Below the pieces are notes generated by a model. That model was not told the DNA's origin, searched no databases, and saw only the letters and a list, made by a program, of their open reading frames with translations. Both the position numbers and the translations under genes were made by a program. 64,000 nt of DNA from Minisyncoccota bacterium (lineage in GTDB: Bacteria > Patescibacteriota > Minisyncoccia > UBA6257 > JAGOQP01), in assembly GCA_041674185.1 (NCBI GenBank), contig JBAYWE010000001.1, forward strand, positions 893 to 64,892, read 5' to 3'. This document shows, piece by piece, positions 8,644 through 57,856 of this stretch. Each line of letters opens with the position of its first letter. The stretch's first letter is position 1.

Positions 8644-10215
8644 TTATTCTTGAGTTTCTTCTTCTGAGGTTTTAATTTCAGGAGATGGATCTATATGTGA
8701 ATCATGAGACTTTTGAAGAGAACCTCGAATTAAATCCTTTAATGCGTCCACATTCATTCGTTCTTCGATAGGCTTTCGCTCCCGTGGTGCCGACGAGACA
8801 TGACCATGGTCTCGTTTTTTCTGTATATCAGAAGACACATCTTTCTTAAGCACTTCGTGTAACGAACGTTCATCTCGACGAGATACCATTTCTCCCGCCT
8901 TATCTCCTACAGAGCCATAATAATCAGTACGAATCTTTTCGTCAACTCGTTCTTTAGAAATAGAGTATTTTGAACGTGACGATTGTAAAATAGCATCAAA
9001 AAGTGAGGGTGCGGGCAGTGGAGGTGGAGGAAGGGTTTTTGCAGAAAAAGGACGCGACGAAACACCATCTACCATAATACGCGCATAAATATGTGCGTTT
9101 GGTAAATTTACAAAATCACTTGCCAAAAATTCTTCAAAAAATTCTTTCTCCAAAAATTCTGCGTCATCCGCTCCCACCCGAAATGAAATCATAGTTCCCA
9201 CGTTTCCAAAAATAGCATCGCGCACTTTCGTATTTTTATCCTGTTCTAATTGAGCGATGTATTGATGCGCCACAATAAGAGAAAGACGATATTTACGAGC
9301 CTCAGAAAGAATTGTCGCGAATGATTCAGTTGCAAAGTTCTGAAATTCATCAACATAGAGAAAGAAATCCTTACGTTCCGCCATGGGAATATCTACACGA
9401 GACATAGCAGCTAACTGCAATTTCGTAATCAACATAGCTCCCAATAAATTAGAATTATCTTCTCCAATTTTTCCTTTAGACAAATTGATAATAATAATTT
9501 TTCCTTCATCCATTGCTTGCCGAAAATCAAAGGAAGATTTTACCTGTCCAACAATACTACGAATTAACGGGTTGGTAACAAATTGTCCAATCTTGTTTTG
9601 AATAGCGGCAACTCCTTCTGTTTCCAACTTCTGCGTATATTTTGCAAACTCATCAACCCAAAACGAACGGACGCTCGGATCTTGCAGATCATTCACAATT
9701 TTACGACGAAATTCTTTATCAGAATACATCTTCATAACCCCCAGTAACGTTGACCCAGGATATTCAAGGAGTGCCAACAAGGTATTATTGAGAATATATT
9801 CCATACGCGCAGACCATGCATCTGGCCATATTTTTTTAAAAACCGACATAAGCCCCGATGCCACCAAATGACGCATATCAAAATCAACCCGTTCTAGAGG
9901 ATTAAACGCAACAGGAAAATTAATATCTGCGGGGTTTATATAAATAACATCATCAACTCGATCTTCAGGAATAAAATGTAAAATTTCTTCAGCTGTTTCT
10001 CCATGAGGATCCACAAAACAGACACCGTGTCCCGCCTTCACATCAGAAATAACCATGTTTAAAAGAAGGGTGCTTTTCCCAGTACCTGATTTTCCAATAA
10101 TATACGTATGCTGACGACGATCTGCTAGTTTGATGCCAAACGTACGCTCTTGATTACGAAAATTAGTTTTTCCTAAATATAATATAGAATCTGCCATAAT
10201 AGTTTTCTCATTCAA
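8644..10215 (-). CDS. HerA/FtsK/VirD4-superfamily P-loop ATPase (DUF87 / T4SS coupling-protein-like), soluble
   Basis: Walker A IIGKSGTGKSTLL, then FVDPHGE (HerA/TraG-type motif), Walker B FFLYVDEFQNF, and a C-terminal Pro-rich/charged tail (LPPPPLPAPS...). No N-terminal TM segment. Confidence 0.6.
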   Translation of the reverse strand: MNEKTIMADSILYLGKTNFRNQERTFGIKLADRRQHTYIIGKSGTGKSTLLLNMVISDVKAGHGVCFVDPHGETAEEILHFIPEDRVDDVIYINPADINFPVAFNPLERVDFDMRHLVASGLMSVFKKIWPDAWSARMEYILNNTLLALLEYPGSTLLGVMKMYSDKEFRRKIVNDLQDPSVRSFWVDEFAKYTQKLETEGVAAIQNKIGQFVTNPLIRSIVGQVKSSFDFRQAMDEGKIIIINLSKGKIGEDNSNLLGAMLITKLQLAAMSRVDIPMAERKDFFLYVDEFQNFATESFATILSEARKYRLSLIVAHQYIAQLEQDKNTKVRDAIFGNVGTMISFRVGADDAEFLEKEFFEEFLASDFVNLPNAHIYARIMVDGVSSRPFSAKTLPPPPLPAPSLFDAILQSSRSKYSISKERVDEKIRTDYYGSVGDKAGEMVSRRDERSLHEVLKKDVSSDIQKKRDHGHVSSAPRERKPIEERMNVDALKDLIRGSLQKSHDSHIDPSPEIKTSEEETQE

Positions 10216-11577: not shown

Positions 11578-12606
11578 TTAAGCAAGGTGGTAATTACCGT
11601 TATTCTTTTTAAAGAATTTCTTGTTCTGTAAATTAAGAAAGATGGTATTGTGTTTTAACACCCGTTCACGTGAAACTAATTGTACTAATTGATCAAGTCC
11701 CATGGGACCGTTCTTTTTCAATAAACGAAGAAGAACATCTCTGGTGTTTCCTGGTTCAATACCAAATTCACGCAATGAATATAACCCACGTCCCACAAGA
11801 ACAAAACGATCACTCGCCTTAATAAGTTCATTATGAACTGTTTGTGGGTGAGCCTTCTTTGTATCAAATTTTACCTTATTAATTTCTTGCGCAATATCAC
11901 GAAAATGCATAGGAGCTTTTTGCTTCTTAAGCACGAGATATGCTTTATCACGAATCGTGCTGGGAGTTATTTCTGGCCACTTTGCTAATCCAAAATTACC
12001 ATAGGCATTCACACGAAATTCTTTAGAGTTAGAGATGAAGTTCAATGCAACAAATTCTTTCACGTTATGTTGTTTCGTGACTTGAGCAAATAACATATCA
12101 AATTCATTCCGTTCAATAAGAGCTTCCTTTTTATTTTTAAGAAAAAGAGCCATCTTCTGTATAAATGTTTTTACCTCTTTAAGAGCAGTTGTATCAGTAT
12201 ACCAAAACGCACACAACTCATCTGTCTCAGAAAAATAGAGCGGTGATTTAAAAAGAGAGAAAAGCAAGGTAAGATATGAACCACTTATTGTTTTATCTTT
12301 CAATACCACTTTTAAATCTTCAACCAAAAAATCAGCGCGACGAACACCTCCGAGTGAAACGACATGATTAACAGCCTCTTTCAGAATCCCCTGAATTTCT
12401 TTTTGTTCTTGCGCCACTTTTAAAAGAGTGCGTAATGAAGCAGCCTCAATCTGACGAACGCGTTCACGCGTAATACCATATTTTTCTCCGAGATACGCAA
12501 GCGTACGCACTTGATTTGATCCCAATCCAAATCGTTGTACGATAATATCTTTTTGACGCTTCGGAAGCGTTGCAACAATAGCATCTAATAAAACTTTAAG
12601 TGTCAT
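11578..12606 (-). CDS. Sigma-70 region-4-like HTH protein with unknown C-terminal domain
   Basis: N-terminus QKDIIVQRFGLGSNQVRTLAYLGEKYGITRERVRQIEAASLRTL matches the sigma-70 region 4 HTH. Regions 2/3 are absent and the remaining ~270 aa is uncharacterised. Confidence 0.5.
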   Translation of the reverse strand: MTLKVLLDAIVATLPKRQKDIIVQRFGLGSNQVRTLAYLGEKYGITRERVRQIEAASLRTLLKVAQEQKEIQGILKEAVNHVVSLGGVRRADFLVEDLKVVLKDKTISGSYLTLLFSLFKSPLYFSETDELCAFWYTDTTALKEVKTFIQKMALFLKNKKEALIERNEFDMLFAQVTKQHNVKEFVALNFISNSKEFRVNAYGNFGLAKWPEITPSTIRDKAYLVLKKQKAPMHFRDIAQEINKVKFDTKKAHPQTVHNELIKASDRFVLVGRGLYSLREFGIEPGNTRDVLLRLLKKNGPMGLDQLVQLVSRERVLKHNTIFLNLQNKKFFKKNNGNYHLA

Positions 12607-14884: not shown

Positions 14885-15046
14885 ATTAAAAATAACATAT
14901 CACAAAAAGCTGAAAAAGCAACAGATACAAAAAGAAAAAAGAGTGCGTAGGCACTCTTTCCTCTATAGTATCTTTGTTTCCTCACGAGACAAAGATTATA
15001 TGCACAGTATGAACTATTTTGTTTTTTTTCGCAAGAGATATCTCTT

Positions 15047-18000
15047 TTATTTTTTTCTTGCTCCCATCCATAAACGCTTCCCGTCTAATTTGGTATCTAT
15101 CTCTGCATCAAATTTTTCCATCTTTCCAATGGTAAGGACACGAGCCCCCACTTCCTTCTTAATAAATGCTTCGTGTATGCGTACCATTGCTTCAATATCC
15201 GAGGTACTTGAGAGTGCAAGAATAATACTATCCTTGGGTACGTATCCGGCATCTTGGCGTAATTCTTGTACTGCCCGAGTCAACTCACGCAATAATCCCT
15301 CCGTTTTTAACTCAGGAGTAATAGTAGTATCAAGAATAAACATCTCTCCATCAACAAGCTCTGAAGAGAAGGTAATTTCTTTTACATTCACTTCATCACG
15401 AATAATTTCAAGAATATCGGGAACAAAAGATCCTTTTGGTTTTTTACCTTGAAGAGTGAGTTTTGCAAGTGGTTGGCGTACTTTAATTTGTAATTCTGCT
15501 CGTTTTGCAAGAACACTACTCGCTATATCACGCGCCCACGACATAACCGATACTAATCCCTCATCAGAAGCTTTTATCTTAAATGTAGGAACAAGTTCTA
15601 AATGAACAGAATCCTTTTTTGAGAAACTATGATCTTTTTTAAGCGATTGATAAATACTCTCTGCAAAAAATGGAGTAAAGGGAGCAATTATTTTTGAAAA
15701 TTGAAGCAGTGTATAGGCTAAAACCTGAGAAGCACTTTGTAGATCTTTTATATTTTCTGGTTTTTGGAATCGACGACGTGAACGACGAATATACCATCGA
15801 GAAAGATCATCAATAAAAGATTCAATAGCAATAGTTGCCTTCGTAAGATCATACATATCCATGTTAGTAGTCACTTCACGCGTCATAAGAGCAAGACGCA
15901 CAAGAATCCATCTATCTAATACATACGGAGTAGAAGGCATATCAATAAGATTTCTTTTATCTAATCCATACATTTGCAAAAATGCAAACGAATTATAGAT
16001 AACCATAAGCGTACGACGAAATGCCTTTCCCACCTCCTCTTCATCAAAATTCTTTGGATCTCCTGGCGCATTGACGGTATAAAAATACCACCGAATAGAA
16101 TCCACTCCATATTTTTGTATTAAAGCCCACGGATCAACAATATTTCCTTTTGACTTAGACATTTTTTGTCCATGTTTATCATGAATAAGTCCCAAACAAA
16201 TAACATTTTTATACGGAGTAGGAAGATCTAATGCGGTCGCAACAGCAAGAAGCGTATAAAACCACCCTCGAGTTTGATCCACTGCTTCAGAAATATAATC
16301 AGCGGGATACAGTTCTGGTTTTGATATCTTCTGTGACTTTGAATTCTTTTGAGCAAAGGGAAAGTGTCCTTGTGCAAACGGCATGGATCCCGAATCAAAC
16401 CAAACGTCGGCAACTTCTTTTACTCGACGCATGGGCGCATGACATTTTTCACATGCAAAAGTAATCTCATCAATATACGGACGATGTAAATCCCCCAACC
16501 CCTGTTCATTTCGAGGAAAAGGAACAAAAGAAACATCCATACTCTGCGCAGTTTTTATAAAATCACCCCCTCTCTGTTTCTTATACGTAATGCTTTCTTC
16601 TTGACTCTTTCCCGAAAGAACTGACTCAAGCATCCATAATGGATACTCATGACTCACCACAAGAACATTTTTACCGGCATATTTCTTCTCAATATCTTTC
16701 ACAAAATCATACATACGTGCAGCAACAGCTATAAGCGCTTCTCCTTTTTCTGGGAATTTTAGAAATCGATCCTCGTAGGTAGGAAAGAGAGCATCATATC
16801 GATCAACCGACTGCCCCTCAAGTTCTCCTAGGTATATCTCCCGCAATCGTTTATCAAAAACTACTTTTGCTCCCGTGAACTGTGAGACAATTTCAGCAGT
16901 TTGATGAGTACGATAAAGATCAGAAGAAATAATAATATCAATATGCTTCTGTACAAGTTTCTGAGCAGTTCGCTTTACATCCCCTATTCCCTTTTTAGTA
17001 AGAGGAAATTGTACACTCTTTTTTACATCACCGCTAATAATGTGTTTCGTGTTATGGAGTGCTCCTCCATGACGCATCAGTATGAATCGAGTCATACTTT
17101 TAGGTTGTGTAGCAATTAATTCTTCTTTCGATCCCAAAACCTGAATGTGGGTACAGTGGGTGCATCGCCACACCGGGAGTGGAGTCCCCCAGTACCGTTC
17201 ACGAGAAAAATTCCAATCTTTTACCTCCTTGAGCCATTCTCCAAATCGCCCCTGCTTAATATGACTCGGAACCCAGTTCACAGACTCGTTTGAAGCAATA
17301 AGTTTCTTTTTCAGTTGAGTCATCTCCACAAACCATGAGGTGCGCGCATAATATAACAAGGGAGTTCCACAACGCCAACAATACGGATATTCATGTTCAT
17401 ATGGAACAGTAGATACGAGCCTCTTTTGTTTTTCAAGGTATTCAAAAATAATTTTCTCAGTTTCATTACTTTTCACAAACCGTCCTGCAAGATCAGGAAC
17501 ACCTTTTATAAATTTGCCCGCTTCATCTACGGTATGATACTGGGGTAATCCTATTTTTTTACCCAATGTATAGTCATCCTCTCCATACATAACTGCGGTA
17601 TGCACAACCCCTGTTCCATCAGTCGTAGTAACAAAATCAGCGCTATATACTTTATATGCGGTCTCTGATTTTTTGAATTCCGCAATATCAAACAAAGGTT
17701 CATATGAAAGACCCACAAGATTTTTTCCTAAAATATTCTTATGTATAGTTTCAATTTGTTCATGAGGAAACACAGCACGAACCAACTCTGACGCAATAAC
17801 ATATAATTCAGATTTTCCATCTACACGAATCACATCGTATGAAATATCCTCTCCCACAGCTAACGCAACATTTCCTGGAAGTGTCCACGGCGTTGTCGTC
17901 CACGAAAGAATATAGGTATTCTCTCCTATGTGAATTTGCTTGTTGTTTATTGCTTGTTGTTTGTTATTTACAAGAAGTTTAAACTTTATATATACCGATT

Positions 18001-18613
18001 TATCAGTCACTGTTTTATAACCCTGTGCGATTTCATGGGAAGAAAGAGCGGTTCCGCAACGAGGACACCACGGTACCACTTTATGTCCTTCATAAAGAAG
18101 CCCCTTGAGCGACAACTGTTTAATAATCCACCATAATGACTCTATATAGGTATTGTGATAGGTAACATACGGATCTTCCATATCTAACCAAAATCCAATA
18201 CGCTCAGTTAGTTTTTCAAACTCAGATTTATGCACCCCAGCCGATTCTCTGCACTTTTGATTAAAAGCAGAAATACCATACGCCTCAATATCTTTTTTAG
18301 AAGAAAGTTCTAATTGTTTTTCAACTTGTAATTCTACAGGAAGTCCATGAGTATCCCACCCAGCCTTACGGGGTACCACAAAACCTTGCATCGTTTTATA
18401 GCGGACAAAAACATCCTTAAAAACGCGCGCAAGAACATGGTGTATTCCCGGGCGTCCATTCGCCGTCGGAGGACCTTCCCAAAAATTAAACTGCTTTACT
18501 TTTTTTCCTTTTGCAGGAGTTATTGATTTTTTAAAAATCCCCCGCTCTTTCCAAAGTGCGAGTACTTTTTCCTCTATTTCAGGGAGGTTGAATGATTTGA
18601 TGTTTCGTAACAT
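15047..18613 (-). CDS. ileS: Isoleucine--tRNA ligase (type 2) with an inserted histidine-phosphatase (PGAM-like) domain
   Basis: Class I HIGH motif (PPTANGRPGIHHV), KMSKS (KMSKSKGN), CP1 editing region and C-terminal anticodon-binding region. Start placed at ATG 18613 (MLRNIKSFNLPEIEE), not the ORF-track 18784 whose first 57 codons are low-complexity. About 180 aa between VLGS..EEL and DLHRP carry the RHG...R...SHE histidine phosphatase motifs. Confidence 0.9.
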   Translation of the reverse strand: MLRNIKSFNLPEIEEKVLALWKERGIFKKSITPAKGKKVKQFNFWEGPPTANGRPGIHHVLARVFKDVFVRYKTMQGFVVPRKAGWDTHGLPVELQVEKQLELSSKKDIEAYGISAFNQKCRESAGVHKSEFEKLTERIGFWLDMEDPYVTYHNTYIESLWWIIKQLSLKGLLYEGHKVVPWCPRCGTALSSHEIAQGYKTVTDKSVYIKFKLLVNNKQQAINNKQIHIGENTYILSWTTTPWTLPGNVALAVGEDISYDVIRVDGKSELYVIASELVRAVFPHEQIETIHKNILGKNLVGLSYEPLFDIAEFKKSETAYKVYSADFVTTTDGTGVVHTAVMYGEDDYTLGKKIGLPQYHTVDEAGKFIKGVPDLAGRFVKSNETEKIIFEYLEKQKRLVSTVPYEHEYPYCWRCGTPLLYYARTSWFVEMTQLKKKLIASNESVNWVPSHIKQGRFGEWLKEVKDWNFSRERYWGTPLPVWRCTHCTHIQVLGSKEELIATQPKSMTRFILMRHGGALHNTKHIISGDVKKSVQFPLTKKGIGDVKRTAQKLVQKHIDIIISSDLYRTHQTAEIVSQFTGAKVVFDKRLREIYLGELEGQSVDRYDALFPTYEDRFLKFPEKGEALIAVAARMYDFVKDIEKKYAGKNVLVVSHEYPLWMLESVLSGKSQEESITYKKQRGGDFIKTAQSMDVSFVPFPRNEQGLGDLHRPYIDEITFACEKCHAPMRRVKEVADVWFDSGSMPFAQGHFPFAQKNSKSQKISKPELYPADYISEAVDQTRGWFYTLLAVATALDLPTPYKNVICLGLIHDKHGQKMSKSKGNIVDPWALIQKYGVDSIRWYFYTVNAPGDPKNFDEEEVGKAFRRTLMVIYNSFAFLQMYGLDKRNLIDMPSTPYVLDRWILVRLALMTREVTTNMDMYDLTKATIAIESFIDDLSRWYIRRSRRRFQKPENIKDLQSASQVLAYTLLQFSKIIAPFTPFFAESIYQSLKKDHSFSKKDSVHLELVPTFKIKASDEGLVSVMSWARDIASSVLAKRAELQIKVRQPLAKLTLQGKKPKGSFVPDILEIIRDEVNVKEITFSSELVDGEMFILDTTITPELKTEGLLRELTRAVQELRQDAGYVPKDSIILALSSTSDIEAMVRIHEAFIKKEVGARVLTIGKMEKFDAEIDTKLDGKRLWMGARKK

Positions 18614-18666
18614 ATAGAACTTCACTATACAAAAAAAAGGAGGAGAAGTGAAGTAAAATAAAAATA

Positions 18667-19749
18667 TTGACACATATAAATAAAAGATGTACGTTAAACA
18701 CACCAAAAAATAACGGAGGCACCTTGAAAATTTTAGTAGATGAAAAGAGAGCGGTTGAGGTCTTTTCAAAATTAGTAGAGGCATTTAAAAATAAACTGCC
18801 TCCCTATGATACTGCACCACTCCCTCAGATACTCACCCCCACACAGATACAAAAGAAATCCGCAGAACATGCACGATTTCTATTCTGTTGTTGTTACTAT
18901 ATGCGCGGAGGTATTCGAAGTGATACAGCTATGAAAAGTTTAGCGGTATTATACGAAAACCATCCTGAATATTTTGATTCAGCGTATGTCGCACAAGCAG
19001 ATGAAAAATCACTACTCCAGTCTTTAAAACAACATCTGCAGGAAGTGAAGCTGAATTATAACGCAAGTGTAATACCACAGTTTTGGATTGATAATTTCAA
19101 AAAAATCAATACATTTTGGGGTGATAATCCAGCACAACTCATTCAAGATGCGGATTATGAAGAAATCACAGAACGCATTATGAATAGCGGAAAAATAAAA
19201 TCAGAAAATCCACATGGATTCTTTGGTTTTAGAGAAAAAATGGTCAGTATGATCATTTATTTTCTCGTAGATGCGGAATTTATAGATCCTCTACATTTTC
19301 CTGTGCCCATTGATTTCCACGCATTGAGAATCATAACGGCACACGAAATTCTTGATACAGAAACAAATACCAAAACAAATATTCTTTCACCAGAATATTT
19401 ACAAGCGGCGCGAGATATATCAGTGAAATTCTGCTTAGAACACAATGAAAGCCCACTCGACTTATGTGGCGCATTGTGGCTTCTCTCACGTACGTGGTGT
19501 AGCCTTCACCCAGGAAATGCAAGTGAAGTTGGTATATATCACGGAAGGAAAACTCACATAGGAGTTTCAAAAAAAAGTAGGTGGACGCAGAAGAACGCAT
19601 TCACTTATGAGGCAACGTGTGGAAGATGTCCTATAGAAAAAACGTGTAAGTATCTCATACCAGCAGGATATTATTACCGACAAGGAAAGATAATTATCCG
19701 CGGAGAAAGAAATAACCATCCACAACTCAATCTCTTTTCAACAAAATAG
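18667..19749 (+). CDS. Hypothetical protein, possible HhH-GPD (endonuclease III-like) base-excision repair fold
   Basis: 360 aa. PVPIDFHALRI resembles the VDTHVxR catalytic segment of HhH-GPD glycosylases. Cys cluster near the C-terminus (CGRCPIEKTC). ORF-track start is TTG; start uncertain. Confidence 0.35.
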   Translation: MTHINKRCTLNTPKNNGGTLKILVDEKRAVEVFSKLVEAFKNKLPPYDTAPLPQILTPTQIQKKSAEHARFLFCCCYYMRGGIRSDTAMKSLAVLYENHPEYFDSAYVAQADEKSLLQSLKQHLQEVKLNYNASVIPQFWIDNFKKINTFWGDNPAQLIQDADYEEITERIMNSGKIKSENPHGFFGFREKMVSMIIYFLVDAEFIDPLHFPVPIDFHALRIITAHEILDTETNTKTNILSPEYLQAARDISVKFCLEHNESPLDLCGALWLLSRTWCSLHPGNASEVGIYHGRKTHIGVSKKSRWTQKNAFTYEATCGRCPIEKTCKYLIPAGYYYRQGKIIIRGERNNHPQLNLFSTK

Positions 19750-19805: not shown

Positions 19806-20927
19806 TTACAACGTCACTTGAACTTGAGAAACAAGGCTGTGTGTAGTCGTCACAACTTCTTTTCCATGAGCAACTATATACATACCCTTTTTATCATTAA
19901 TAACTCGCTGAAGGTGCGGAATAATTCTTTCTTCTAAAAGCACTATAAGCGATTGGAATGAGTTTAGTGGTCCTCGCAAAGAAAACGGCGAATCATCCAT
20001 TCCCAGAAATCCCTGGTCAAATAAATATAAAACCTTTAAAAAATAGCGGGATTGATAATGAAATGCCTCAGAAATTTTACTATCAATAATTCGTTTTCTA
20101 TGCTCTTTCTTAAATTCTTTATCATCCTCAAGTTTAAAGAGGTTAATAAGATCTCCTTGTGAATCACGTTCGCGAAGATGCTTCCTCACAAGATCTTGAA
20201 ATTTCTTAACCGGATAATCTTGTAAGACAGCAGACACAAACCAGTCACGCAATTCTTGTCCACGAATTCTATGATCACGCAACCTTCCTAATTCACAGGC
20301 AACGCCAAAAGAAATGACATTATTTTCAGTTGCGGTTTGAATATACCGAGGGACGTTTGTGAATCGTAATGCCTGTTTTATCGTCTCAGGGGATTTCATC
20401 ATTATCCGAGAAAATTCAGCAAGAGACATGTCCTTTCTTTTATAGAATCGAAAGCATCGCGTGATGAACAAAGCTTCTTCATCTGGACGGACTGGGTCAC
20501 GCACGTTTTCAGATATTTGTAACTTGATAGCCTCCTCAGCTGAAATACCCACGCATAAAACAGCTTTAATACGATTTCTAAATTCTTTATCGTATCTTCC
20601 TTGTTCAATAAGTAATCGGGTAGCTCGAAGACGTCGTTCTCCCGCGATTAAAAAACAGTATTGTCCCTGATACAAAACGAACTGAGAATCATCAAGGTGG
20701 GTCTTAAATATCTCGCTAAAATGAGCAATGTATTTTTTCATCTCACGATAGTCGAGACAAGCAACCGTAACAGCATTAATGAGTCCATGTTCAAAAATAT
20801 TTTCCGCAAGACTAGGGATATTTTCAAATATTTTACGTATTTGCGGAAGTACATTAATTTTGAATAGAGACAGAAAGACATCCTGAGTCTTATATTGCTT
20901 TGATTTGTACTCCATGAGTTCCTCCAC
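19806..20927 (-). CDS. ParB-like nuclease domain protein
   Basis: ParB/Srx N-domain motif LIAGERRLRATRLL. 373 aa with an uncharacterised C-terminal half. Confidence 0.55.
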   Translation of the reverse strand: MEELMEYKSKQYKTQDVFLSLFKINVLPQIRKIFENIPSLAENIFEHGLINAVTVACLDYREMKKYIAHFSEIFKTHLDDSQFVLYQGQYCFLIAGERRLRATRLLIEQGRYDKEFRNRIKAVLCVGISAEEAIKLQISENVRDPVRPDEEALFITRCFRFYKRKDMSLAEFSRIMMKSPETIKQALRFTNVPRYIQTATENNVISFGVACELGRLRDHRIRGQELRDWFVSAVLQDYPVKKFQDLVRKHLRERDSQGDLINLFKLEDDKEFKKEHRKRIIDSKISEAFHYQSRYFLKVLYLFDQGFLGMDDSPFSLRGPLNSFQSLIVLLEERIIPHLQRVINDKKGMYIVAHGKEVVTTTHSLVSQVQVTL

Positions 20928-21673: not shown

Positions 21674-21710
21674 AACAAAAACACCCAACAAGTGGGTGTT
21701 TTTGTTTGGT
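21674..21710 (-). terminator. Perfect 16-bp stem hairpin immediately 3' of tmRNA
   Basis: ccaaacaaaaacaccc-aacaagt-gggtgtttttgtttgg, abutting the ssrA 3' end at 21713. Confidence 0.45.
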
Positions 21711-21712
21711 AG

Positions 21713-22037
21713 TGGAGGCGGGGAGATTGAACTCCCGTCCATAGATATCTTCAAAAACCGTCTACACGCTTAGTTGATAAACAACAATGATTTAGTTCTA
21801 TGTTTAACCATGATCTACGAACCACTCAACCATAGCGATTCTCATATATAACACCGGTAAAATCCCTATGAGAAATCGGGGACCGATGCCTTTCATAAAA
21901 GAAAGGATAACCCGTGTTCGTTCTTAGGCAAACGCGAGAGCCATAGGTTTGGCAATTATTGGTTTGATTGGTTTACAAGACAATCGGCTTGGCATGCAAG
22001 TTTTCAAAGGAGTACCTCTGTCAAAGCGTACGCCCCC
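21713..22037 (-). ncRNA. ssrA: tmRNA (SsrA), ~325 nt
   Basis: Minus-strand 5' end GGGGGCGUACGCUUUGACAGAGG...UUGCAUGCC (matches the conserved tmRNA GCAUGCC region). 3' end GGACGGGAGUUCAAUCUCCCCGCCUCCAC(U)A has a tRNA-like T-arm and an acceptor with G3-U. Internal tag ORF GCC AAA CCU AUG GCU CUC GCG UUU GCC UAA (AKPMALAFA*) at 21924-21953. smpB is immediately upstream on the same strand. Confidence 0.75.
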
Positions 22038-57632: not shown

Positions 57633-57716
57633 GCCGAGGTGGCGAAATTGGTAGACGCACTAGCTTCAGATGCTAGCGACCGAAAGGTTGTGCAGGTTCA
57701 AATCCTGTCCTCGGCA
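57633..57716 (+). tRNA. tRNA-Leu (anticodon CAG), class II with long variable arm
   Basis: GCCGAGG acceptor paired with CCTCGGC. D-arm TGGCGAAATTGGTAGACGCA. Anticodon stem-loop CTAGC-TTCAGAT-GCTAG. Long variable arm CGACCGAAAGGTTGTG. T-arm CAGGTTCAAATCCTG. Discriminator A. CCA not encoded. Confidence 0.85.
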
Positions 57717-57856
57717 CAAAAAAATAAAAGAAATATAAAGTAAATAATAGTACTTATAACACGAGAATAAGTTCTGTTAGAAAATTATAAAATTGATAAA
57801 AATAAATTCGTGAATAGAGATATATTTAAATTATCTCATACACAAAAAAATACATT

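What the first reader, a model, noticed from the sequence alone, without database searches (positions are those of the whole stretch)
16550..17092. Isoleucyl-tRNA synthetase carries an inserted, apparently intact histidine-phosphatase (phosphoglycerate-mutase-like) domain
ileS is 1188 aa from ATG 18613, about 150-200 aa longer than typical type-2 IleS. In the linker between the conserved ...PLPVWRC..VLGSKEEL and DLHRPYIDEI segments there is a ~180-aa block. Other IleS proteins have only ~15-25 residues there. The block reads TRFILMRHGGALHN...SSDLYRTHQTAEIV...YLGELEGQS...NVLVVSHEYPLWML. It contains the catalytic RHG motif, the conserved Arg, the T-A pair and the second catalytic His in SHE, which is the histidine phosphatase superfamily core. 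The motifs look catalytically competent rather than decayed, so this may be an aaRS with a phosphatase activity. I am not aware of such an IleS architecture being described.
Basis: partly seen in the sequence, partly recalled or inferred. Interest (0 to 1): 0.8.

Follow-up and report, generated by a model that had tools for sequence, protein, structure and literature searches.

The report
Phosphatase domain nested inside isoleucyl-tRNA synthetase
The gene for the enzyme that loads isoleucine onto tRNA carries, inside its catalytic body, a complete and apparently active phosphatase domain. Related bacteria encode the same phosphatase as a separate gene directly in front of that gene, so the two activities seem to work together for a purpose nobody has described.

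Summary

It is not an assembly artefact: all 120 best homologues (51-100% identity, independent Parcubacteria/Patescibacteria assemblies) carry it. In other Parcubacteria the same phosphatase is a free-standing gene of about 190 aa, directly upstream of an insert-less ileS (argS-hisPhos-ileS) in 7 of 7 readable look-ups. Some IleRS carry two to four copies, or a copy at a second site after KMSKS.

It is not a dPGM, CobC or PspA by curated cut-offs. The substrate is unknown. I read it as a phosphomonoesterase working with IleRS.

Eight full-text searches and a 96,000-sequence IleRS survey do not mention this architecture, although it is plainly visible in public databases. Novelty: new variant of a known kind. 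Interest: 0.65.

The parts
15047..18613 (-). ileS coding sequence, 1188 aa plus stop: type-2 isoleucyl-tRNA synthetase with a nested phosphatase domain
   Evidence: ORF. TIGR00392 scores 881.5 bits against a cut-off of 621.4. Pfam finds tRNA-synt_1, Anticodon_1 and DUF5915. Foldseek places the model on type-2 IleRS structures 8c8w, 8wnd and 1ile.
18437..18448 (-). Class I signature motif in its non-canonical form GIHH (GXHH instead of HXGH), aa 56-59
   Evidence: Translation. G56 and H58 are nearly invariant and H59 is invariant. The GXHH variant is described for IleRS2 in PMC10485003.
17882..17899 (-). TTTPWT motif of the CP1 editing domain, aa 239-244
   Evidence: Translation. T239, T240, T241, W243 and T244 are invariant in 119 sequences.
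17153..17164 (-). First half of the CP3 zinc knuckle, CTHC (C484, C487)
   Evidence: Translation. C484 is invariant and C487 nearly so. It aligns to the Tth IleRS WVCQAC motif. The CP3 zinc motif of TtIleRS is described in PMC7191050.
16493..17095 (-). The whole insert, aa 507-707 (201 aa). It is equivalent to a complete free-standing ~190-aa phosphatase, including its C-terminal helix and strand tail.
   Evidence: Boundaries come from the alignment to 1ILE: Tth 483|489 corresponds to aa 506|708. Free-standing homologues of 182-214 aa align end to end. The insert-only AF2 model has pLDDT 87.4.
16595..17083 (-). His_Phos_1 (PF00300) core, aa 511-673
17066..17074 (-). RHG motif: R514, nucleophile H515, G516
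   Evidence: Translation. R514 and H515 are invariant in 120 homologues. They are present in all non-truncated copies among 228 fused and 178 free domain copies.
16910..16912 (-). R568, the second phosphate-binding arginine
   Evidence: Invariant.
16838..16840 (-). E592, the predicted general acid, in LREIYLGELEG (aligned to PhoE LREIHLGDWEG)
   Evidence: Alignment to PhoE 1ebb. The position is E in 215 and D in 10 of 228 fused copies. It is D in 139 and E in 39 of 178 free copies.
16649..16651 (-). H655, the second catalytic histidine (SHE)
   Evidence: Invariant.
16442..16453 (-). Second half of the CP3 zinc knuckle, CEKC (C721, C724)
   Evidence: Translation. Both cysteines are invariant. 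The motif aligns to the Tth LAC-ACGG region.
16151..16165 (-). KMSKS loop, aa 817-821
   Evidence: Translation. K817, M818, K820 and S821 are invariant.
18624..18652 (-). Promoter-like site (TTCACT-17-TATAGT) ending 11 nt before the ATG at 18613. This is a consensus match only.
   Evidence: The number of sites in the region is not above the shuffled expectation, so this is weak support for the start codon.
14933..14964 (-). Terminator-like hairpin with a T-run between the ileS stop and the secD start
   Evidence: secD and secF are identified.

Best explanation
**Shown here.** This is a real, conserved, two-enzyme polypeptide. It is a complete type-2 isoleucyl-tRNA synthetase with a GXHH signature, KMSKS, an intact CP1 editing motif and the type-2 C-terminal domains. 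A full-length branch-1 histidine phosphatase (PhoE/PspA-like, about 200 aa) is nested in the loop between the two CxxC pairs of the CP3 zinc knuckle. The nested domain belongs to the same Parcubacteria-specific family as a free-standing ~190-aa gene. In related lineages that gene lies immediately upstream of an insert-less ileS, often with start and stop a few bases apart or overlapping. In still other lineages the domain is duplicated in tandem or placed at a second site after KMSKS.

**Inferred from the well-studied chemistry of the family.** H515 attacks a phosphomonoester to form a phospho-histidine intermediate. R514, R568 and H655 hold the phosphate. E592 protonates the leaving group, and water then releases phosphate.

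**Inferred from the repeated gene-neighbour and nested-domain linkage (Rosetta-stone logic).** The phosphatase works physically with IleRS, as a subunit in the split lineages and as a tethered domain here. It acts on a phosphorylated species generated at or presented to IleRS. My ranking of candidates, none tested:
- a blocked tRNA-Ile 3' end (2'/3'-phosphate or pyrophosphate on A76);
- a phosphorylated residue of IleRS itself;
- a nucleotide by-product.
For: - **Real ORF and domain.**
- **Not an artefact.** All 120 best homologues (51-100% identity, many independent assemblies from NCBI, JGI, ENA and Logan) have PF00300 at the same place. 129 of 147 full-length fused proteins have the domain between WxCxxC and H[RK]PYxD. 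Most of the rest only fail the regular expression; five carry extra copies.
- **Insertion site.** It is the CP3 zinc knuckle.
- **Catalytic residues.** They are kept in essentially all non-truncated copies among 228 fused and 178 free domain copies (two have a non-acidic residue at the acid position, one lacks the second His), including every complete copy of the 2-4-domain proteins.
- **Free-standing gene.** It lies directly upstream of ileS in L002, L003/4, L005/6, L007/8, L009, L010 and L011/12. The downstream genes of L002 and L007 were tested and pass TIGR00392.
- **Split and fused states interleave.** Split-state IleS are not monophyletic on the IleS tree (0 of 100 bootstraps monophyletic). 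A fused locus still has argS 1.6 kb upstream.
- **Second insertion site and tandem copies.**
- **IleS-specific.** Every multi-domain hit I scanned is IleS. The other long hits have the length, and the domain position, of a fused IleS or a fragment of one.
- **Charge.** Free-standing members are unusually basic: pI 9.5 and +8.3 net charge per 100 aa, against +1.2 for window ORFs and about -1.9 for PhoE/PspA. This is compatible with RNA or acidic-partner binding.
Against: - There is no biochemical evidence of any kind, and no substrate can be read from the sequence. No curated equivalog cut-off is reached.
I could not measure whether the phosphatase pocket faces the aminoacylation site, the editing site or the tRNA path.
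- The insert is the least conserved part of the protein: 43% mean pairwise identity against 60-69% for the catalytic and editing parts.
- Tolerance of two insertion sites and of 2-4 copies argues against a precise geometric coupling. It is equally compatible with mere co-expression.
- The split loci share synteny (smpB-argS-hisPhos-ileS), so the seven neighbourhoods are not fully independent observations.
- A more distant archaeal homologue is not next to ileS.
- To my knowledge there is no precedent in this superfamily for an RNA-end phosphatase.
Confidence: 0.55

Rival explanations
1. Passenger enzyme. The domain is an ordinary housekeeping phosphomonoesterase, for example for phosphate or nucleoside salvage in a reduced genome. 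It became linked to ileS, and later nested in a permissive loop, because that guarantees co-expression. There is no mechanistic connection to isoleucylation.
For: - CP3 is structurally variable among IleRS, so it is a permissive site (PMC7191050).
- The insert evolves faster than the core.
- Two sites and variable copy number are tolerated.
- The nearest solved relatives are small-molecule phosphatases.
- IleS in this group also picks up other domains, such as GNAT and an IS200 Y1 transposase domain in P0353.
Against: - The linkage is specific to IleS and persists through at least three architectures and over IleS divergence down to about 35-40% identity.
- Gene junctions are tight or overlapping in the split state.
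- No other aaRS or unrelated host protein appears among the long proteins I scanned. The remaining long hits fit fused IleS by length and domain position.
Confidence: 0.3
2. Non-catalytic module. The fold is used as a phosphate- or anion-binding structural or RNA-binding domain, for example gripping the tRNA backbone or a 5' phosphate. The 'catalytic' residues are kept only for binding.
For: - Free-standing members are very basic.
Against: The complete set is conserved in about 400 copies: the nucleophile His, both Arg, the second His and the acidic proton donor (E or D). A proton donor is not needed for binding alone.
Confidence: 0.08
3. It is the organism's cofactor-dependent phosphoglycerate mutase (a glycolytic enzyme) that happens to be fused to IleRS.
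For: The best NCBIfam hit by score is the archaeal dPGM model NF038349. The fold is shared with dPGM.
Against: - It scores 94.5 bits against a cut-off of 225 for NF038349, and 29.6 against 81.7 for TIGR01258.
- The sequence has REIYLG where dPGM has ERHYG. From established knowledge of dPGM, the Arg and Tyr that bind the second substrate group are therefore absent.
- The domain is the short ~165-aa phosphatase type, and the top structural neighbours are phosphatases.
Confidence: 0.03
4. Artefact or selfish insertion. Either a frameshift or mis-assembly fuses two genes, or an intein-like element is spliced out of the protein.
For: None was found. The idea is suggested only by the unusual length.
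Against: - The frame is continuous and the composition uniform.
- The architecture is identical in more than 120 independent assemblies.
- There are no Hint, intein or homing-endonuclease Pfam hits.
- The junction residues (…KSM|TRF… and …GLG|DLH…) lack intein splice-site residues.
Confidence: 0.02

Closest known systems
Type-2 isoleucyl-tRNA synthetase (IleRS2), e.g. Thermus thermophilus 1ILE and Priestia megaterium 8C8U-8C8W
   Same: Same domain order, a zinc-knuckle CP3, an editing CP1, the type-2 C-terminal domains (DUF5915) and a GXHH-type signature. The scores are TIGR00392 881 bits and Foldseek TM 0.78-0.88.
   Different: About 200 extra residues form an independent enzyme fold inside CP3, where Thermus has about 5 residues.
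PhoE (Geobacillus stearothermophilus, 1EBB/1H2E) and PspA/iPSP1 (Hydrogenobacter, 4IJ5): branch-1 histidine phosphatases acting on small molecules
   Different: Those enzymes are free-standing and acidic (about pI 6, from the aligned fragments). This one is nested in an aaRS or encoded next to one, and its free relatives are strongly basic. No equivalog cut-off is met.
Bifunctional RNase H / acid phosphatase (Rv2228c-type, NCBIfam NF005567)
   Same: A branch-1 histidine phosphatase is joined to a nucleic-acid enzyme. It is the second-best NCBIfam hit (86.5 bits).
   Different: There the fusion is end to end and not nested, the partner is different, and the score is far below the cut-off of 326. 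From memory, the functional reason for that fusion is also unclear.
IleRS carrying a GNAT acetyltransferase domain (NCBIfam NF040702, ileS_w_GNAT)
   Same: It is another IleRS that has acquired an extra catalytic domain. One relative, P0353, has both a His_Phos and a GNAT domain.
   Different: The added fold and chemistry differ. The window protein scores 304 against a cut-off of 1999 for that model.
MutT1 (Nudix plus histidine-phosphatase domain; 9cxx, 3fjy)
   Different: The partner domain is different, the fusion is end to end, and the similarity is much lower.

Membership tests
Isoleucyl-tRNA synthetase, type 2 | Equivalog HMM TIGR00392 above its curated cut-off | tested here: met
   881.5 bits against 621.4. 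The match is split in two by the insert.
Isoleucyl-tRNA synthetase, type 2 | Class I signature (HXGH or its IleRS2 variant GXHH) and a KMSKS loop | tested here: met
   GIHH at aa 56-59 and KMSKS at aa 817-821. Both are conserved in 119 sequences. GXHH is known in IleRS2.
Isoleucyl-tRNA synthetase, type 2 | CP1 editing domain with the threonine-rich motif | tested here: met
   TTTPWT at aa 239-244 is invariant. The protein matches editing-domain structures 1wk8 and 1ue0.
Isoleucyl-tRNA synthetase, type 2 | Type-2 C-terminal domains rather than the type-1 C-terminal zinc-binding domain | tested here: met
   PF19302 (DUF5915) at aa 1093-1184. The best structural matches are IleRS2 and eukaryotic IleRS.
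Isoleucyl-tRNA synthetase, type 2 | Isoleucine activation and tRNA-Ile charging activity | not testable with these tools
   Inferred from the intact motifs only.
Histidine phosphatase superfamily, branch 1 (PF00300) | Pfam model above its gathering score | tested here: met
   113.3 bits against 21.7, E 1.5e-32, aa 511-673.
Histidine phosphatase superfamily, branch 1 (PF00300) | Catalytic core: RHG nucleophile His, two Arg, a second His and an acidic proton donor | tested here: met
   R514, H515, R568, E592 and H655 are present. They are conserved in about 400 family members.
Histidine phosphatase superfamily, branch 1 (PF00300) | The alpha/beta fold of the superfamily | tested here: met
Histidine phosphatase superfamily, branch 1 (PF00300) | Phosphomonoesterase activity through a phospho-histidine intermediate | not testable with these tools
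   Needs an enzyme assay.
Cofactor-dependent phosphoglycerate mutase (dPGM) | Curated equivalog or subfamily HMM cut-offs (NF038349, TIGR01258 and others) | tested here: not met
   94.5 against 225, and 29.6 against 81.7.
Cofactor-dependent phosphoglycerate mutase (dPGM) | Substrate-binding residues after the catalytic Glu (the ERHYG motif) | tested here: not met
   The sequence reads REIYLG. The motif definition is from my own knowledge of dPGM.
Alpha-ribazole phosphatase CobC | TIGR03162 or NF011580 above cut-off | tested here: not met
   75.6 against 162.9, and 59.4 against 250.
Phosphoserine phosphatase PspA (histidine-phosphatase type) | NF045917 above cut-off | tested here: not met
   67.5 against 350, although PspA is the closest structure.
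Intein or homing element | Hint or intein domains and splice-junction residues | tested here: not met
   No such Pfam hits. The junction sequences lack the Cys/Ser ... His-Asn-Cys/Ser/Thr pattern.
Known anti-phage defence proteins (PADLOC) | Any PADLOC model hit for the insert or its free-standing homologue | tested here: not met
   0 families at E <= 0.01.

The most novel reading that the evidence does not exclude
The phosphatase is a dedicated maintenance activity of the isoleucylation machinery in Parcubacteria. [quoted passage not shown] The other is a self-protecting step that removes an inhibitory phosphate placed on IleRS by a HipA-like kinase toxin. Either would be a new class of aaRS-embedded quality-control or anti-toxin function. 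It would also be the first RNA- or aaRS-directed member of the branch-1 histidine phosphatases.
Probability: 0.2. Interest if true: 0.85.

Novelty: new variant of a known kind. Interest (0 to 1): 0.65.

Why it matters
Aminoacyl-tRNA synthetases are among the most studied enzymes, and their accessory domains (editing, GST, WHEP, EMAPII, GNAT) have repeatedly revealed new biology.

Here a second, apparently active catalytic centre of a chemistry not previously linked to aaRS sits inside the catalytic body of an essential enzyme. It does so across a large, uncultivated bacterial radiation. Evolution has also supplied a natural control series:
- separate neighbouring gene;
- nested domain;
- tandem copies;
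- a second insertion site.

This makes the hypothesis of a functional IleRS-phosphatase partnership directly testable with recombinant proteins.

If the substrate turns out to be tRNA or IleRS itself, it would define a new repair or regulatory step in translation. If it is an unrelated metabolite, the case still shows how reduced genomes nest whole enzymes in permissive loops of essential proteins. It would also warn that automated pathway calls in Patescibacteria, for example 'phosphoglycerate mutase present', could be triggered by a domain hidden inside ileS.

Tried and rejected
- **Genome-contig scan.** The scan with the single insert sequence returned only two loci, so the taxonomic range across GTDB species could not be charted. 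It did give the key split locus L002.
- **afdb50 fold library.** The library was not available.
- **Model coordinates.** The AlphaFold models are not exposed, so I could not measure distances between the phosphatase pocket and the synthetic site, editing site or tRNA path.
- **Literature.** Eight full-text searches found no paper describing the architecture. The single hit for IleRS plus Parcubacteria was irrelevant. A 2026 survey of 96,219 IleRS sequences does not mention a phosphatase or Patescibacteria.
- **Domain tree.** A neighbour-joining tree of the phosphatase domains interleaves fused and free forms. Branches are too long and too many proteins are fragments, so I draw no direction of evolution from it.
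- **Cluster look-up.** It gave no organism names for the divergent or multi-domain variants.
- **Other checks.** PADLOC gave nothing. Rfam found no leader RNA near ileS. No second His_Phos gene exists in the window.
- **Look-ups of distant free homologues.** One was too short to read. The other was archaeal and not linked to ileS.
- **Considered and rejected.** Assembly artefact, intein, dPGM, CobC and PspA identity.
Full report
**1. The observation**

- The window holds one uninterrupted ORF at 15047..18784 on the minus strand.
- Starting at the ATG at 18613 it encodes 1188 aa. That start agrees with the N-terminus of the homologue consensus (MLxxxxxFxLPExEEKVL). A promoter-like -10 box ends 11 nt upstream. 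A terminator-like hairpin follows the stop, and secD-secF lie downstream.
- Pfam finds tRNA-synt_1 in two pieces, Anticodon_1 and DUF5915. Between the two catalytic pieces it finds His_Phos_1 (PF00300) at aa 511-673, E 1.5e-32, 113 bits against a gathering score of 21.7.
- NCBIfam's ileS equivalog TIGR00392 scores 881.5 bits against a cut-off of 621.4, again as a split match.
- GC content is uniform across the junctions.

**2. Where the insert sits**

- Alignment to solved IleRS shows that T. thermophilus residues 483 and 489 correspond to aa 506 and 708. About 5 residues in Thermus are replaced by 201 residues here, aa 507-707 = window 16493..17095.
- The flanks are WRCTHC (C484, C487) and CEKC (C721, C724). 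These are the two halves of a four-cysteine zinc knuckle.
- According to PMC7191050 the Thermus enzyme has this zinc motif in the CP3 subdomain. CP3 links CP2 to the second half of the Rossmann fold, and its topology differs among IleRS. It is therefore a structurally permissive surface element.
- The rest of the protein has everything expected of a working type-2 IleRS:
  - KMSKS and the invariant TTTPWT editing motif;
  - the type-2 C-terminus;
  - the non-canonical GIHH (GXHH) signature, which Brkic et al. linked to mupirocin hyper-resistance in IleRS2.

**3. Not an artefact**

- All 120 best homologues in a 5.8-billion-protein collection carry PF00300. They are 51-100% identical and 1140-1235 aa long. 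They come from NCBI, JGI, ENA and Logan assemblies named Paceibacterota, Wolfebacteria, Jorgensenbacteria, Minisyncoccia and Parcubacteria. Wolfebacteria and Nealsonbacteria belong to the Parcubacteria group of Patescibacteria.
- The distance between the two cysteine pairs is 228-246 residues in all of them.
- In 129 of 147 full-length fused proteins the domain lies between WxCxxC and H[RK]PYxD. Most of the others only have motif variants that fail the regular expression; five carry extra copies.

**4. The domain looks catalytically competent**

- R514, H515, R568, E625 and H655 are invariant, and E592 is nearly invariant, in the 120 homologues.
- Alignment to PhoE (LREIHLGDWEG against LREIYLGELEG) identifies E592 as the general acid.
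- I examined 228 IleS-embedded and 178 free-standing domain copies:
  - both Arg and both His are present in essentially every non-truncated copy (one free copy has Ser for the second His);
  - the acid position is E or D in all but two copies;
  - every complete copy in the multi-domain proteins keeps the full set.
- The insert as a whole evolves faster than the synthetase core: 43% mean pairwise identity against 60-69%. Selection is concentrated on the active site.

**5. Structure**

- AlphaFold2 with 119 sequences gives mean pLDDT 91.3 and pTM 0.85. Most 10-residue blocks of the insert score 92-98.
- The model's core matches type-2 and eukaryotic IleRS structures with target-normalised TM 0.78-0.88. 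The insertion does not disturb the synthetase fold.
- By curated HMM cut-offs it is not a dPGM, CobC, PspA or GpmB. The dPGM-type ERHYG substrate motif is replaced by REIYLG. That makes it a phosphatase-type member of unassigned specificity.
The orientation of the phosphatase pocket relative to the IleRS sites remains unknown.

**6. The key extra finding: split, nested and multiplied forms**

- A scan of species-representative genomes returned a second fused IleS (L001). It also returned L002, where a free-standing 188-aa His_Phos_1 protein, 39% identical to the insert, lies between argS and a 962-aa insert-less ileS. Stop and start overlap. TIGR00392 scores 722.7 bits as one continuous match.
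- This protein has a family of at least 120 clusters of ~190-aa proteins.
- In every look-up where the downstream gene could be read, the phosphatase gene is immediately upstream of an insert-less ileS of 931-963 aa. There were seven such look-ups: L002, L003/4, L005/6, L007/8, L009, L010 and L011/12. The usual order is smpB-argS-hisPhos-ileS-(small ORF)-recO.
- An eighth locus ends right after the phosphatase.
- The pair stays together even where other genes have been inserted between argS and the phosphatase: a retron-like RT/bAvd cassette in L003 and Pterin_4a in L009.
- The free-standing protein aligns to the whole insert, including its C-terminal helix and strand tail. The insert is therefore a complete gene's worth of protein.
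- A search of 1.84 billion cluster representatives with the insert gave a top 150 made of fused IleS, fragments of fused IleS and ~190-aa free proteins.
- Some IleS have two domains:
  - P0302 has them in tandem in CP3;
  - P0300, P0316 and P0361 have one in CP3 and one after KMSKS, before the anticodon-binding domain.
- P0283 has at least four tandem copies before its contig ends.
- On a tree of IleS cores with the domains removed, split-state IleS are never monophyletic (0 of 100 bootstraps):
  - L011's IleS is closest to a fused IleS (55%) and only 38-46% identical to other split IleS;
  - L007's is closest to fused ones (54%).
- A fused locus (L015) still has argS 1.6 kb upstream, with the same Na_Ca_ex and Pterin_4a neighbours seen in split loci.
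- Since the three split lineages share synteny, the split state is probably ancestral. Nesting has happened more than once, or has been reversed.
- A more distant archaeal homologue, with a NAC neighbour, is not linked to ileS. The linkage is therefore a property of the Parcubacteria subfamily.

**7. Mechanism**

- Shown: the architecture, the intact active site, the fold, and the persistent and specific linkage to ileS.
- Inferred from family chemistry: a phospho-histidine (H515) phosphomonoesterase cycle, with E592 as the acid.
- Inferred from the neighbour, nested, tandem and second-site series: the phosphatase functions together with IleRS.
- A weak extra hint is that the free-standing proteins are very basic: pI 9.5 and +8.3 net charge per 100 residues. 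Ordinary ORFs of this window have +1.2, and PhoE/PspA about -1.9. This would suit binding to tRNA or to an acidic patch.
- What the substrate is I cannot tell. In decreasing order of personal preference the candidates are:
  - a phosphate-blocked tRNA-Ile 3' end;
  - a phospho-residue on IleRS;
  - a nucleotide by-product.
- The main rival is that it is a passenger housekeeping phosphatase, kept with ileS only for co-expression. Supporting that rival are the permissive site, the faster evolution, the tolerance of two sites and several copies, and the tendency of IleS in this group to acquire other domains (P0353 has GNAT and an IS200 Y1 domain).

**8. Novelty**

- The architecture is plainly present in public databases. 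UniRef and NCBI entries include one from a Wolfebacteria genome of the GW2011 series. NCBI mostly names these proteins 'class I tRNA ligase family protein'.
- I found no description of it in eight full-text searches.
- I also found none in a 2026 preprint that annotated domain architectures of 96,219 IleRS, nor in the AARS Online paper.
- NCBIfam has a special model for IleS with a GNAT domain but none for this one.
- I rate it a new variant of a known kind: an aaRS with an acquired accessory catalytic domain. Interest is 0.65. It would surprise an aaRS specialist and is directly testable, but its biological meaning is still open.

Noticed in passing
window 18437..18448 (-): The class I signature motif of this IleRS is GIHH. 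This is the swapped GXHH form that Brkic et al. (PMC10485003) associate with mupirocin hyper-resistance in type-2 IleRS. G56 and H58 are nearly invariant and H59 is invariant across the 119 aligned homologues.
   Followed up: partly
P0300, P0302, P0316, P0361, P0279, P0287, P0385, P0283 (relatives); locus L016 1932..6191 for P0300: Some Patescibacterial IleS carry two His_Phos_1 domains. They are either tandem in CP3, or one in CP3 plus one after KMSKS and before the anticodon-binding domain. P0283 has at least four tandem copies before its contig ends. All complete copies keep the catalytic residues.
   Followed up: partly
P0353 (1066 aa, JGI contig of 11.3 kb): This IleS-like protein has an IS200-type Y1 transposase domain (aa 340-461) inside the CP1 region, a His_Phos_1 domain (aa 680-854) and a C-terminal GNAT domain (aa 935-1063). 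It has no recognisable anticodon-binding domain. It could be a mosaic, a pseudogene or a repurposed paralogue.
   Followed up: no
L003 / L004 3597..4959: A diversity-generating-retroelement-like pair (bAvd accessory protein and an RVT_1 reverse transcriptase) is inserted between argS and the phosphatase gene. It does not separate the phosphatase from ileS.
   Followed up: no
P0121-P0240 (free-standing phosphatases): The free-standing ileS-adjacent phosphatases are unusually basic: mean pI 9.5 and net +8.3 charges per 100 residues. The nested inserts have +2.3, ordinary ORFs of this window +1.2, and PhoE/PspA about -1.9.
   Followed up: partly
L002 (CAZDKD010000014.1): The record is titled 'uncultured Candidatus Saccharibacteria'. 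However, its IleS is 75-77% identical to those of loci L003, L005 and L010, and the phosphatase of L003 is named Nealsonbacteria (Parcubacteria) by NCBI. The taxonomic label looks doubtful.
   Followed up: partly
window 21710..22037 (-) and 57633..57717 (+): There is a tmRNA gene with tag peptide AKPMALAFA, and a tRNA-Leu(CAG). These are the only Rfam or ARAGORN RNA genes in the window. No T-box or other leader lies upstream of ileS.
   Followed up: no
window 18667..19749 (+) and 19806..20927 (-): Two ORFs of 360 and 373 aa lie immediately upstream of ileS. Neither has a Pfam or PADLOC match. The first begins only 54 bp from the ileS start, on the opposite strand.
   Followed up: no
window 8644..10215 (-) and 11578..12606 (-): A type IV secretion coupling-protein-like ATPase (T4SS-DNA_transf / TrwB) and a protein with Sigma70_r4 plus HARE-HTH domains sit a few genes downstream of ileS-secDF. 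An unannotatable 411-aa ORF lies between them.
   Followed up: no
window 14943..15452 (+): A 169-aa GTG ORF runs antisense to the 3' end of ileS. It is most likely a chance ORF on the opposite strand of a conserved gene.
   Followed up: no
P0173 (194 aa): JGI names one free-standing ~190-aa phosphatase 'isoleucyl-tRNA synthetase'. This is presumably annotation transferred from the fused proteins, and an example of how this architecture propagates misannotation.
   Followed up: no
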